Shown one piece after another: positions 2,052-6,278 of a stretch of DNA of 64,000 bases. Positions within the stretch are counted from its first letter, which is position 1; every line of letters starts with the position of its first letter. Source of the stretch: Schizosaccharomyces osmophilus (lineage: Eukaryota); NCBI RefSeq assembly GCF_027921745.1, contig NC_079239.1, positions 124,001 through 188,000 on the forward strand. The letters run 5' to 3'. The position numbers were made by a program, and so were the translations under genes. Under the pieces are notes generated by a model that had not been told where the DNA came from, did no database searches, and was given only the letters and a program-made list of their open reading frames with translations.

Positions 2052-2170
2052 AGCCTACAGCATCCCGGATTCCCATGTTGTCTCCAACCATAGTACTAAC
2101 GAGACCCTCAGACGCTTAACTGCAGTGATCGGACGGGAACTGGTGTTTTCGCCTAGGTATGGCCGTAGAC
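2052..2170 (-). rRNA. 5S rRNA gene, copy 1
   Basis: Reverse complement reads GTCTACGGCCATACCTAGGCGAAAACACCAG...GGATGCTGTAGGCT, 119 nt, near-identical to Schizosaccharomyces 5S; T-run Pol III terminator follows. Confidence 0.98.
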
Positions 2171-2882
2171 ATTTGTTATGATCTGTAAAGATATTTATTA
2201 CAATAATGATCCAGTCTTTTATTTGGCTTGATGAACTACAAGATCCAATTCAACTCAGTTCTATCTGGTATTTTTCATGGCTAAATGGTGAATGCTTTCA
2301 TATTATAAGAATAATATTTGAAAACACACTGTTTTCTCTTCTTTATTGATTCACATTGTGGTCGCAGGAGCATCAAATTGAGTGTATGAGTTTATGGGTT
2401 GAAAATGTTACTTAATATAAATTGGGTTCTACTTGAAATTTTTCATGGTCCGTCGACTTGACTGCCAAAGTAAACGATAATTCAATGTTTTAAACTACAT
2501 CAATTGAACCTTCCAACCTGATGATTTGTGCTTTCTATGCTGTGAATGAATTTTACCTCTGGCGGTAATCACTTTCGTTCTTACAATTAATGAAAGACAC
2601 GACACAGTTTTGAGTAAAAAACTAGTTAATTACGATGGTATTTTCCTCAGAATAATTAAATAATCATTAAAAAGGGTGTCTATTCATGCAGAAAATGAAC
2701 GATGTCGTGAAACGAATAAGAAGATTCATGAAAGAGAAATGAGAAAAGCAATCAAAGTCTGCTGGTTTCATCTGATCCAAGCTTTTGTGGAAACGAATAC
2801 AGGAACTTGGTAGACTGCAATTGACATCGATGTTTCCAAAGAAGGAGCGAAATGTAAAGAACGAAAGCAGGTTCGGTAAAAC

Positions 2883-3925
2883 TCAAACATCAGCCCTTTG
2901 CTCAGCAAGAGGCTGAAGTTCGATTTCTTCGTTACGAGGTGGACCATTCCTGCTAATTCTGTTCTGACAGGTTATTAAGAGATCCTAGATTAAGAATAAT
3001 AAATGTACTTACTACACGTGTCATATCTTGAATATCTTCAATCACATCTGGGTTTCCTAGAGAAGTTAGAAAGGTTGATAGAAAATAGCACCTTACGAAT
3101 GAGAAGTACAAAGAAGCATATGTTCAGTACTGCCAAAACAACCAACACCGCAGCTGAATGTATATATTCAAATCCTCCTGATAATTTCAAAACGTAACCA
3201 CCGACTCCATTCAAACTTATCAGTATAATTAGGGCTTTACACACAGCTGGTGCCACTTTCTTTGTTGCTCTTCCAGCTTGCGTGAGCCCTTGTTTGGCCT
3301 GCGGGAACCATTCTTTAGGCAATTGAGTTATTACTAATAGTTAGTAAGTCATTAAAAATCCTGAAATTAGTTTCTTACCAATTGTCAATGACAAAAATAG
3401 AGCGCACCAAACGCCAAAAAGTACCCAAACGGCAAGCTGATTAAACGGAATTTCGTAAACAAGAAGAATGACCCTCGCAATAATTAAGCATACATTATAT
3501 ACAATAAAAATAGCAAAAACAATTGCTAATTTACGAGGCGTCAGATACCTTTTCTTTTTAGAACTTTCTTCTGTTTCAGGAGCCATTTCTAGATCAATAA
3601 ATTTGGTTGAAGCTAATGGATGTATTATTAACTGTTCTTTCGTTGTTTGTGAAAAGGATAGAGGTATTCGCCCTGTTTGTTGACACTTATCGACAAGGTT
3701 ATTAGTTTCAAACCCATCAAATAAATAAACAAGCATGATTCTTCCATCATGAACCGTTCAAACAAGAACACAAAGAATAAACCTTTCCTTTCCATTTCAA
3801 CTAATCTTACCTGAATACGGAGGAGGCGTACCATCAGAAGGAGACGACTGACTATCTACCTTTTCATCATTGAGCGTTTTGGAAGAGTCATCAGAATCCG
3901 AAATAGGAGTATATTTGTTTTTCAT
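2883..3925 (-). CDS. wtf: wtf-family meiotic driver; long (antidote) isoform 236 aa, short (poison) isoform 189 aa from ATG 3586
   Basis: Exons 3925-3811, 3612-3379, 3333-3097, 3056-3013, 2963-2883; all donors GTAAG, AG acceptors with YTAAY branch sites, 711 nt open frame. Exon 1 MKNKYTPIS...GTPPPYS; exons 2-3 encode about 4 hydrophobic segments; tail NEEIELQPLAEQRADV. Confidence 0.88.
3674..3684 (-). promoter_or_regulatory. FLEX-like (Mei4) site in wtf intron 1, candidate poison-transcript promoter element
   Basis: GTCAACAAACA on minus strand, one mismatch to GTAAACAAACA, about 90 nt upstream of the exon-2 ATG. Confidence 0.5.
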
Positions 3926-4285
3926 ATTTACAATGGCAATCAGAGCCCAAAATAACACCGATATTTACCCTCTAAACGAAATCAACTATTTAATCACCAA
4001 GAAAAGTCCGTAGGAACTGGCCCCAGGTTTCACAGATCTTTCAAAAATAGGAATTGGACCTTACGTTAAAAACAAACAAATTTTTCAACACAACTTTTCC
4101 CTTAAAAACCAAAGATGCGAGTTTGAAAAAATCTTGGTAATGGCTTTTCGCATGTCTCAATTCATAAAGCTGCGACATTATGTCACTGACTGGTCACAGT
4201 CCTCGTTACGATTATTCAACGTTGGTTTTTTATTGCGATTTTTCTAAATAGTATAATCCAAAAGAGTCGTCGTTTATTACAAAAA

Positions 4286-4294
4286 GTAAACAAA
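4286..4294 (+). promoter_or_regulatory. FLEX/forkhead core in the wtf-wag divergent intergenic region
   Basis: GTAAACAAA; a second core TGTTTAC lies at 4926-4932. Confidence 0.45.
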
Positions 4295-4968
4295 GGAACA
4301 TTTGGCAAAACAACCATGCTGTTTGCTTAAATTATAAATAGCAGGATTAGAAATGCATATATTTGTATTGGAAGGTTCTGTGACTTTGGCTTAACAGGTT
4401 TTACAGTTTTCATTTCGTTAATTAGATCCTAAACTTGAGAATAATTGGTCCACTGGTATAAAAGCAGAATCCCAATTGAATGAAAATATGATTATTTACA
4501 CAATCAGTCATTTAACAAGAAAGCGAATGGGAAAGGTTCGACGCTTGTTTTATAATGTTCCCAAGACCCATCAGAAGTGTCATACAATACTTGTGTAGCT
4601 GTAAATATGGAAAATCATAATTAACGACATTTATAGTGACTAGTACATCTTTATTTAATTTATTTTAATCACACGATAGAAACAAACAAAAGCGATTTCG
4701 GACTGTTCATTCATTGTAAATATATATAGAATAGCGTACGCTTACTAGCTATCTGTATGTGTGTCAGAGAGGGTGAATGACAGCTTCACCTCTGCAAAAC
4801 TCTAGTCATTGCCATTGTGGACTCGATTCATGTAGTTTGGAGTTGTTACAAAGTAGATTTATATTAAACTTGTTAGTCGGATCAGATGTGTGCTACTGTT
4901 TTGAAAGTTCTGACATGAATTTGGGTGTTTACTGCCTGTTTGAGTAGGTTTTGAAGGAATTTCAGAAA

Positions 4969-5830
4969 ATGACTGAAAAAAACAAATACAAAAAGCTAAA
5001 AGATGCTGATTCAGCTGACGTTCCTCGCTTGGGCACTCTTGCAACGTTTGACGGTGAACTGCCACGGTACAATGAAATCTTGAATTCTCATCTAGACGAC
5101 TTGGAAAAAGGTCATGCACCTCCGTACTCAGAAAACAGACATCAAGAAGCGTCTACCAACATGGCACAAGGAAGCGGATTCTTTATTCTTTTACGAAATG
5201 TCTTGACGGCATTATTGTGGTTGATTCTCTGGCCGGCAAAAATTGTGAGAATCCCCGAAGCAAAGCGGAGACAGGAGAATGAACTTCTTCGGCTTGGTTG
5301 GTGCTTTATTGGTTCAATCGTATTGGACTTTTGGTTTTCTTACAAATACCTTGTCCCCTTTATAAAGGAATCGATAAAAGAATCTGTAGGGGTAAACTTT
5401 CAAGCTACTGTAGCAGTTGTTTTTTTCGTCGTGGCTTTCTATATGTTCTTATTTGTTTTTTCACGTAAGTGGAATGGTGGGATTTTAATTTGATATGTTT
5501 ACTAATGGGGTACTTTTAGTGTTGGTGGATATAATCGTTATATTGATTCCTCTAGTTTTTACTTGGATTTCCTCGATTTTTTCTGGGATTTTTTCTGTGA
5601 TTACTAGTGCTCTAGGCTTCAGGATGTCATCGGATAGAAACGACTTGACGGATGATAATAGTATCCCATTAAACAGCTTGCCACCAGAGCCTGAAAACCA
5701 GTTCAACGATCGTAGTGATGATACTTTTAAACAACCGTCCTCTGAACATACCTCTGAACATACTGAGCAATCTCCAGGGTTACGCCAGGAACCGGGTCAG
5801 TCTAGGGATGTTGAAAGCGGTGGGAATTGA
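4969..5830 (+). CDS. wag: Probable wag (wtf-associated gene); 268-aa multi-TM protein with Wtf-antidote-like N-terminus
   Basis: Exons 4969-5464 and 5520-5830; the 55-nt intron (GTAAGT..actaat..TAG) joins ORFs 4951-5493 and 5495-5830 in frame. About 4 hydrophobic segments; LPRY, DLEKG and APPYS motifs. Named from its position divergent to wtf inside the 5S pair. Confidence 0.72.
5739..5762 (+). repeat. 12-bp tandem duplication in wag exon 2 (SEHT-SEHT)
   Basis: cctctgaacata x2. Confidence 0.85.
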
Positions 5831-6159
5831 TTTATACGGAAAGTAAAGCATTGTTTTTTATAATGTCCGGTCTTTTCGATTTTTCTCCAGCATGCTTTTG
5901 CTTATGTTTATGTTTCATCTTTGCATTTTGTATTTTATATTTATTCGTCAAGCACTTTTTAATTACTGATCCTTATAGAATCTTTTCAATTCTAACTAAC
6001 AAGGAATTTAATTAATTTGTGAATCATGGTTGACCATTGCTTCCTTGCAATCACTAGTATCACTAAGTCAAACGTCTATGTCGATCAAGACGAAAGCCAT
6101 GTGCTTCAATTTTTAAAAGAGCAACAAAGAGAAGCAAAAAGTAAAATAAAACAGTGAAA

Positions 6160-6278
6160 AGCCTACAGCATCCCGGATTCCCATGTTGTCTCCAACCATA
6201 GTACTAACGAGACCCTCAGACGCTTAACTGCAGTGATCGGACGGGAACTGGTGTTTTCGCCAAGGTGTGGCCGTAGAC
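6160..6278 (-). rRNA. 5S rRNA gene, copy 2 (variant U12C, A17U relative to copy 1)
   Basis: 119 nt, 117/119 identical to copy 1; 5' end reads GTCTACGGCCACACCTTGGCG. Confidence 0.97.

What the first reader, a model, noticed from the sequence alone, without database searches (positions are those of the whole stretch)
2052..6278. wtf-wag pair packaged between direct-repeat 5S rRNA genes: a recombination-mobile selfish cassette
Seen: both 5S genes are on the same strand, 4108 bp apart, and tightly bracket only the two drive-related genes; I saw no LTR or transposase. Established: wtf genes of S. octosporus/osmophilus associate with dispersed 5S genes, with spread by non-allelic recombination or gene conversion proposed. 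Inference: crossover between the repeats would pop out a roughly 4.1-kb circle bearing one 5S that could reintegrate at any other 5S locus, leaving a single-5S empty site.
Basis: partly seen in the sequence, partly recalled or inferred. Interest (0 to 1): 0.75.

Follow-up and report, generated by a model that had tools for sequence, protein, structure and literature searches.

The report
Known 5S-bracketed spore-killer gene unit
This is a real but already catalogued fission-yeast locus in which a predicted spore-killer gene and its neighbour sit between two same-direction 5S rRNA genes; it was likely copied in by recombination between 5S genes, and the circle model proposed for it is published but untested.

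Summary
Observation confirmed: two minus-strand 5S genes (2052-2170, 6160-6278; 117/119 identical, 4108 bp apart) enclose an intact five-exon wtf gene and a divergent wag gene, with no transposase, terminal repeats or target-site duplication. The locus is Schizosaccharomyces osmophilus wtf23 (= wtf9/wag6 of strain CBS 15792). This locus is one of that paper's data points: the sister species have a 5S without wtf there. A 5S-attributed presence/absence case (wtf31) is also published; both sequenced strains carry this unit. New here: wtf and wag similarities are uncorrelated across 14 loci (rho -0.01, p 0.50) and both proteins are mosaics, so the pair keeps no joint history. The left 5S adjoins an unannotated GOST-like gene whose paralogue is bracketed by 5S genes with no listed wtf, so 5S cargo is not drive-specific and the sister-species site is not shown to be a clean 4108-bp empty allele. 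No circle was observed, and contigs could not show one. Already known; low interest.

The parts
2052..2170 (-). 5S rRNA gene, left copy (downstream of wtf), followed by a T5 run
   Evidence: Rfam RF00001 107 bits; T-run; SOMRRNA_62 in Jia 2023 Table S5 at offset 124,000
2883..3925 (-). wtf gene, intact, 236 aa; exons 3925-3811, 3612-3379, 3333-3097, 3056-3013, 2963-2883 (wtf23 = SOMG_02561; wtf9 in CBS 15792)
   Evidence: Model, identical to P0043; coordinates match Table S4; joints in run X4 match introns 1 and 2 (contigs pool paralogues)
3674..3684 (-). FLEX-like (Mei4) motif in wtf intron 1, one mismatch to the consensus
   Evidence: same motif, 241 bp from the gene start, listed for wtf9 with p 2.48e-5, weaker than the paper's confident cut-off of 3e-6
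3584..3586 (-). In-frame ATG near the start of exon 2 (Met48), predicted start of the poison isoform
   Evidence: Sequence and model; wtf9 predicted DRIVER in Supp. 1c
4969..5830 (+). wag gene, 268 aa, intron 5465-5519, divergent from wtf (SOMG_02562; wag6); function not established
   Evidence: Identical to P0013; 30 family members among 188 candidates, all from S. osmophilus, S. octosporus or S. cryophilus
6160..6278 (-). 5S rRNA gene, right copy (beyond wag), with two substitutions at 5S positions 12 and 17
   Evidence: Rfam 100.9 bits; differences; SOMRRNA_63
1..1249 (-). Outside the unit: open frame of at least 416 codons running off the window, GOST/PTM1-like seven-transmembrane family by distant relatives; paralogue of SOMG_02333; not listed in Table S4
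   Evidence: 80% identical to P0058 over 416 aa; relative P0059 hits Pfam GOST_TM at E 2e-5, just under the curated cut-off; no gene listed between SOMG_02560 and SOMG_02561
6724..8371 (+). Outside the unit: gamma-tubulin gtb1, the conserved right flank
   Evidence: Pfam Tubulin and Tubulin_C; Table S4; S. octosporus orthologue SOCG_04756

Best explanation
This is one copy of the published 5S-wtf-wag-5S unit of S. osmophilus, a passive segment with no mobility enzyme that was likely copied into a pre-existing 5S gene by host homologous recombination, most likely by gene-conversion repair of a break in a lone 5S using another unit as template. Shown: the anatomy, the multicopy nature of the interior, the intact wtf reading frame, and mosaic wtf and wag proteins. 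Taken from print: a 5S without wtf at the syntenic site in two sister species. Inferred: that the unit was gained here rather than lost twice; that conversion rather than a circle did the copying; that the wtf makes poison and antidote, so that any empty allele made by 5S-5S recombination would tend to be killed in crosses with the filled allele; and that later conversion among units reshuffles wtf and wag independently.
For: Anatomy. Locus identity. Lineage-specific with 5S-only syntenic sites; 5 of 6 and 11 of 12 such sites in the paper's other comparisons. In the 72 5S rows I read of Jia Table S5, 30 of 32 neighbouring pairs within 15 kb are same-strand, 20 of 32 hold a listed wtf, and 11 of 32 are spaced 4.0-4.5 kb, all 11 holding a wtf. 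In run X1 the flank contigs match with 0 differences and stop inside the 5S genes (1748-2060; 6232 onward, a 14.2-kb contig), while the interior breaks into many variant contigs. Conversion is active in these units: the wtf is 97-98% identical to six paralogues over residues 1-116 but only 25-40% over 136-195, where four other proteins are 95-97% identical; Jia 2023 reports ectopic recombination tracts in 4 of 41 strain pairs; wtf and wag similarities are uncorrelated. The nearest listed relative, S. cryophilus wtf1 (85.7%), acts as poison and antidote in budding yeast.
Against: Mosaicism shows conversion between existing units, not how the unit first arrived; conversion and circle integration leave the same product. 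The paper itself allows lineage-specific loss. The interval from gtb1 to the other flank gene used in the paper (SOMG_02558 = SOCG_04757) is about 12.8 kb in S. osmophilus and also holds SOMG_02559, SOMG_02560 and the GOST-like frame, so more than one event separates it from the sister-species state. Drive by this gene is untested, and 1 of the 2 S. osmophilus poisons tested (wtf19) was not toxic. I could not read the sister-species DNA directly (no genome held).
Confidence: 0.6

Rival explanations
1. Circle route: a crossover between the two 5S genes releases a 4108-bp circle with one 5S that integrates by single crossover at another 5S.
For: The geometry allows it: direct repeats with 105 bp of perfect identity. 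Proposed in print for these units. wtf31 is present in one strain and absent in the other, attributed to tandem 5S recombination. Both 5S differences lie in the 5' part of the gene that abuts gtb1, which fits a resident variant 5S with exchange further in, but later mutation fits as well.
Against: No circle observed; no listing in the searches reports one. Empty sites also arise by single-strand annealing or unequal exchange without any circle (recalled knowledge). 119 bp is short for efficient ectopic crossover (recalled from budding-yeast work, no call). This unit is present in both compared strains.
Confidence: 0.25
2. Ancestral unit or larger rearrangement: the unit was here in the ancestor and was lost in sister species, or it arrived as part of a bigger segment with the GOST-like gene, so the 4108-bp interval was not itself the moving piece.
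For: The DNA left of the left 5S is itself duplicated: paralogue SOMG_02333 on chromosome 1 lies between same-strand 5S genes about 7 kb from another wtf-wag unit, and runs X1 and X2 (one sample) hold a second version of the left flank joining 1787 to 2031. The syntenic interval is about 12.8 kb. Loss is allowed by the paper.
Against: Loss would be needed twice (S. octosporus and S. cryophilus). The module order differs between the two loci (GOST-5S-wtf-wag-5S here; 5S-wtf-wag-5S-frp-cmt1-5S-GOST-5S on chromosome 1), which fits separate modules better than one block.
Confidence: 0.13
3. Autonomous mobile element (composite transposon or site-specific integrative element) using 5S genes as ends.
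For: Only the outward look: cargo between direct repeats.
Against: No transposase, integrase or recombinase frame, no terminal inverted repeat, no target-site duplication; Pfam finds nothing above cut-off in either protein.
Confidence: 0.02

Closest known systems
[quoted passage not shown] 2022, PMC9562144)
   Same: Same architecture, same orientation rules, the same locus (wtf9/wag6), and the same two proposed routes including the circle.
   Different: Nothing in kind. I add a wtf-versus-wag similarity test and the observation that the left flank is itself a duplicated 5S-adjacent module.
S. osmophilus wtf23 (SOMG_02561) and the wtf31 presence/absence polymorphism (Jia et al. 2023, PMC10085805)
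   Same: The window's genes match Table S4 and S5 coordinates at a constant offset; the paper reports a 5S-attributed empty allele at another unit.
   Different: This unit is present in both strains; the empty allele is at wtf31, not here.
Five-S-associated repeats (FSARs; Tong et al. 2019, PMC6538654) and CenA repeats (Jia 2023)
   Same: Segments of 0.6-4.2 kb associated with 5S genes, variable in copy number, some carrying genes such as hsp16; CenA usually flanked by two tandem 5S genes.
   Different: Centromeric; CenA is non-coding, whereas this unit lies on a chromosome arm and carries an intact wtf.
LTR-flanked wtf genes of S. pombe
   Same: Same driver family spread with the help of a dispersed repeat.
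   Different: The repeat is a Tf solo LTR, not 5S, and S. pombe has no wag.

Membership tests
wtf poison-antidote driver family | Homology to annotated wtf proteins | tested here: met
   Identical to P0043; exon 2 finds 10 proteins among 46 candidates, 8 named wtf meiotic driver. Pfam WTF (PF03303) did not hit, in line with the low identity to S. pombe genes that the paper reports.
wtf poison-antidote driver family | Five exons, open reading frame | tested here: met
   introns 198, 45, 40 and 49 nt with GT-AG ends; introns 1 and 2 match joints in run X4.
wtf poison-antidote driver family | In-frame ATG near the start of exon 2 | tested here: met
   ATG at 3586-3584.
wtf poison-antidote driver family | PY motif in exon 1 and several transmembrane segments | tested here: met
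   PPPY at residues 34-37 and 4 hydrophobic segments; role of PY motifs from passages.
wtf poison-antidote driver family | FLEX motif in intron 1 | tested here: inconclusive
   One-mismatch motif at 3684-3674, weaker than the paper's confident cut-off; none of 31 intact S. osmophilus genes passes that cut-off.
wtf poison-antidote driver family | Poison toxicity, antidote rescue, drive in heterozygotes | not testable with these tools
   wtf9/wtf23 is not among the genes assayed in the section read; its 85.7% relative S. cryophilus wtf1 is positive in the budding-yeast assay.
wag family | Homology to wag proteins; divergent from wtf, between wtf and the upstream 5S | tested here: met
   layout as defined.
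5S-wag-wtf-5S unit | Both 5S genes on the same strand as wtf | tested here: met
   All three on the minus strand.
5S-wag-wtf-5S unit | 5S without wtf at the syntenic site in sister species | not testable with these tools
   Sister genomes are not held; taken from Supp. 1p row wtf9. The flank orthologues were checked through ortholog tables. Contigs of related organisms covered gtb1 but could not bridge a 5S.
Co-inherited wtf-wag cassette | Congruent wtf and wag relationships across loci | tested here: not met
   Spearman -0.013, Mantel p 0.50 on 90 of 91 pairs at 14 loci; nearest neighbours agree at 0 of 14.
Autonomous transposon or integrative element | Mobility enzyme, terminal inverted repeats or target-site duplication | tested here: not met
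Circle-mediated mobile unit | Covalently closed 4108-bp circle with one 5S | not testable with these tools
   Only assembled contigs were served; they break at the 119-bp repeat.

The most novel reading that the evidence does not exclude
Dispersed 5S genes in this clade act as generic exchange sites for a kit of interchangeable modules (wtf-wag, wag-less wtf, a GOST-like membrane gene, hsp16 repeats) that move as small circles and stack in any order, this locus being a two-module stack whose middle 5S is shared.
Probability: 0.2. Interest if true: 0.5.

Novelty: already known. Interest (0 to 1): 0.14.

Why it matters
As a finding it adds little: the unit, the locus, the empty syntenic site and the circle model are in print (2022-2023). 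What stays open is the route. Showing a real circle, or conversion, would explain how a killer meiotic driver family multiplies without transposons and how short Pol III genes reshape these genomes. This locus is a usable test site because its right 5S differs from the left at two positions and its gtb1 flank is unique, but it is a poor example of a clean empty allele because its left flank is also duplicated.

Tried and rejected
Run search: 14 runs, all kept as contigs; no RNA holder listed. Of these I laid 8. The joint 2171 to 6206 in X1 and X2 (one contig each, one sample, 29 letters on the short side, content between unknown) was rejected as an empty allele: it links a 5S end to the middle of a 5S, not outer flank to outer flank. 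The 'goes back' joint 6252 to 2640 in X7 and X13 was rejected as a circle junction: it is what a paralogous 5S-wtf spacer gives when its 5S is placed on the other copy. Positions where X1 shows only non-window letters inside wtf and wag were not read as absence of this unit, because contigs drop rare variants. The published wtf tree file was cut at reading, so congruence was tested on identities, not trees. Table S20 of Jia 2023 (strain-to-strain wtf identity) was not reached in the cut file and could bear on how similar wtf23 and wtf9 are. wag as a distant wtf homologue: rejected; the ESM Atlas gave no usable hit, which shows nothing. A script looking for a spliced gene of 85 aa or more in 1255-2051 found none. 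Earlier findings of this scan: none returned.
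Full report
Observation. The two 5S genes are real and where stated: 2052-2170 and 6160-6278, both on the minus strand, 107 and 100.9 bits, 4108 bp apart, differing at 2 of 119 positions, with 105 bp of unbroken identity. Between them lie a minus-strand five-exon gene (3925-2883, 236 aa) and a plus-strand two-exon gene (4969-5830, 268 aa) transcribed away from each other. My splice models are identical to the NCBI proteins P0043, named wtf meiotic driver of S. osmophilus, and P0013, SOMG_02562. 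No mobility enzyme, inverted ends or target-site duplication were found.

Identity of the locus. Table S4 of Jia et al. 2023 (PMC10085805; rows seen) lists wtf23 = SOMG_02561, 'syntenic with wtf9 in CBS 15792', SOMG_02562 and gtb1 at coordinates equal to the window's plus 124,000; Table S5 lists both 5S genes. In De Carvalho et al. 2022 (PMC9562144) Supplementary file 1c, wtf9 is 1043 bp long, paired with wag6, flanked by 5S on both sides, predicted DRIVER, with the same weak FLEX motif 241 bp into the gene, all as here.

[quoted passage not shown] Jia et al. report that 41 of 42 wtf genes are shared between the two strains and attribute the one exception, wtf31, to recombination between tandem 5S genes (section 29). 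This unit is present in both strains.

How common the unit is. I read 72 5S rows of Table S5 (the first 30 rows of the table were not read). Of 32 neighbouring pairs within 15 kb, 30 are same-strand, 20 contain one of the 23 wtf starts I had listed, and 11 are spaced 4.0-4.5 kb, all 11 with a wtf. The wtf list was incomplete (pseudogenes and late rows missing), so 'no listed wtf' is not 'no wtf'. The pairs are not independent, so I give the strand bias as a count only. In contigs of run X1 the flanks match the window with 0 differences and end inside the 5S genes (1748-2060; 6232 onward), while the interior is split among many variant contigs, as expected if the whole 5S-to-5S interval is the repeated unit. 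Depth there is not copy number, and this run may be the window's own source, so it is not independent support.

The third check: do wtf and wag travel together? For 14 of the 20 wag-linked loci of Supplementary 1c I paired published wtf identities (strain CBS 15792) with wag identities computed from the neighbouring SOMG proteins (pairing by adjacent locus tags). The six left out (wtf7, 18, 19, 31, 37, 42) had no separate wag record or no wtf identity row. Over 90 of 91 pairs Spearman's rho is -0.013 (Mantel p 0.50); without wtf5 and wtf12 it is -0.25 (p 0.92), without the truncated wag -0.001 (p 0.47); the nearest wtf and nearest wag point to the same locus at 0 of 14 loci. Both proteins are mosaics: the wtf is 97-98% identical to six paralogues over residues 1-116 but 25-40% over 136-195, where four others (three from S. 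cryophilus) are 95-97% identical; wag matches P0014 best over 101-165 (89%) and P0015 over 166-200 (97%). This fails the congruence test but does not refute joint arrival, because conversion after insertion erases the signal; both papers document such conversion. Caveats: two strains, protein identities rather than trees.

The flank complicates the clean picture. Left of the left 5S is an open frame of at least 416 codons (1249 to the window edge, minus strand), absent from Table S4, 80% identical to SOMG_02333 and distantly GOST/PTM1-like (8 hits; best Pfam hit of a relative E 2e-5, just under cut-off). SOMG_02333 lies on chromosome 1 between same-strand 5S genes 3057 bp apart, with no listed wtf. 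Runs X1 and X2 (one sample) hold a second form of this flank that joins 1787 to 2031. The left 5S therefore borders two duplicated modules. The flank gene that the paper used on this side (SOCG_04757 = SOMG_02558) is about 12.8 kb from gtb1 in S. osmophilus, so the sister-species 5S-only site differs from this locus by more than the 4108-bp unit. That the extra genes are absent there is inferred from gene numbering and orthogroups, not from DNA. Non-drive cargo next to 5S genes is also published: FSARs with hsp16 (PMC6538654, passages) and CenA.

Mechanism. The unit encodes nothing for its own movement, so host recombination must act on the 5S ends (inference). I favour conversion: a break in a lone 5S is repaired from another unit and copies the interior in. 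Conversion is shown to be active in these units, while a circle needs two crossovers in a 119-bp repeat, and empty sites can also come from single-strand annealing (both points recalled, no call). The evidence does not separate the routes: 0.6 for conversion, 0.25 for circles, 0.13 for loss or a larger block. The wtf has the features of a driver and its nearest listed relative, S. cryophilus wtf1 (85.7%), is a working poison-antidote pair in budding yeast, though S. osmophilus wtf19 poison was not toxic. If it drives, empty alleles would be selected against in crosses, which would help retention (inference). wag has no shown role; it is not detectably related to wtf, and a joint 4369 to 5838 in X1 and X2 suggests a paralogous unit that has lost wag.

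Literature seen. PMC9562144: abstract, sections 6 (part 1 of 2), 7, 9, 10, 11, 58 (part 1 of 2), passages, Supplementary file 1 parts 1, 2 and 44 and 12 rows of 1e, rows of Fig. 1 source data 3. Its preprint 10.1101/2022.06.24.497463: passages. PMC10085805: passages, section 29, rows of Tables S4 and S10, part of S5, fragments of Fig. S12; the file was cut and Table S20 was not seen. PMC6538654, 10.64898/2025.12.28.696746 and 10.1101/2024.08.27.609905: passages. No listing in searches or 76 reports a wtf circle being detected, and one search listed only two papers on wag; the library lacks most subscription journals.

Verdict. The feature is real; the architecture, the locus and the proposed mechanism are published; the circle remains a hypothesis. 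Already known, interest 0.14.

Noticed in passing
window 1-1249 (minus): Open frame of at least 416 codons, paralogue (80%) of SOMG_02333, distantly GOST/PTM1-like; not in the published gene table. Differences from the paralogue are patchy (near identity over the first 175 residues, divergent blocks later), suggesting conversion or fast evolution.
   Followed up: partly
window 1788-2030: A 243-bp stretch between the GOST-like gene and the left 5S is skipped in a second version of this flank in runs X1 and X2, probably the chromosome 1 paralogue, where the gene-to-5S distance is 625 bp rather than 803.
   Followed up: partly
window 44228-44313 and 45515-45600: Two same-strand tRNA-Phe(GAA) genes in an 86-nt perfect direct repeat, 1287 bp apart, enclosing 1214 bp without an obvious gene; possibly a tRNA-bounded analogue of the 5S units.
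   Followed up: partly
window 6262 and 6267: The right 5S differs from the left at 5S positions 17 and 12; Rfam marks a non-standard pair in this copy. The unique right-flank contig begins at 6232, 30 bases before 6262, suggesting the 6262 letter is private to this copy in that sample.
   Followed up: partly
window 4369-5838: Runs X1 and X2 hold a contig joining the wtf upstream region to the wag downstream region with 4 letters fitting either side, suggesting a paralogous unit from which wag was deleted; a similar joint (4292 to 5600) occurs in X7 and X10.
   Followed up: no
window 2641: A T-run loose end in run X4, whose contigs also skip introns, may mark the poly(A) site of wtf-family transcripts about 240 bp past the stop codon; paralogues are pooled.
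   Followed up: no
window 3097-3333 (wtf exon 3): Residues 136-195 of this wtf are 95% identical to three S. cryophilus proteins but 25-40% to most S. osmophilus paralogues found, an unusually close cross-species match for a fast-evolving family.
   Followed up: partly
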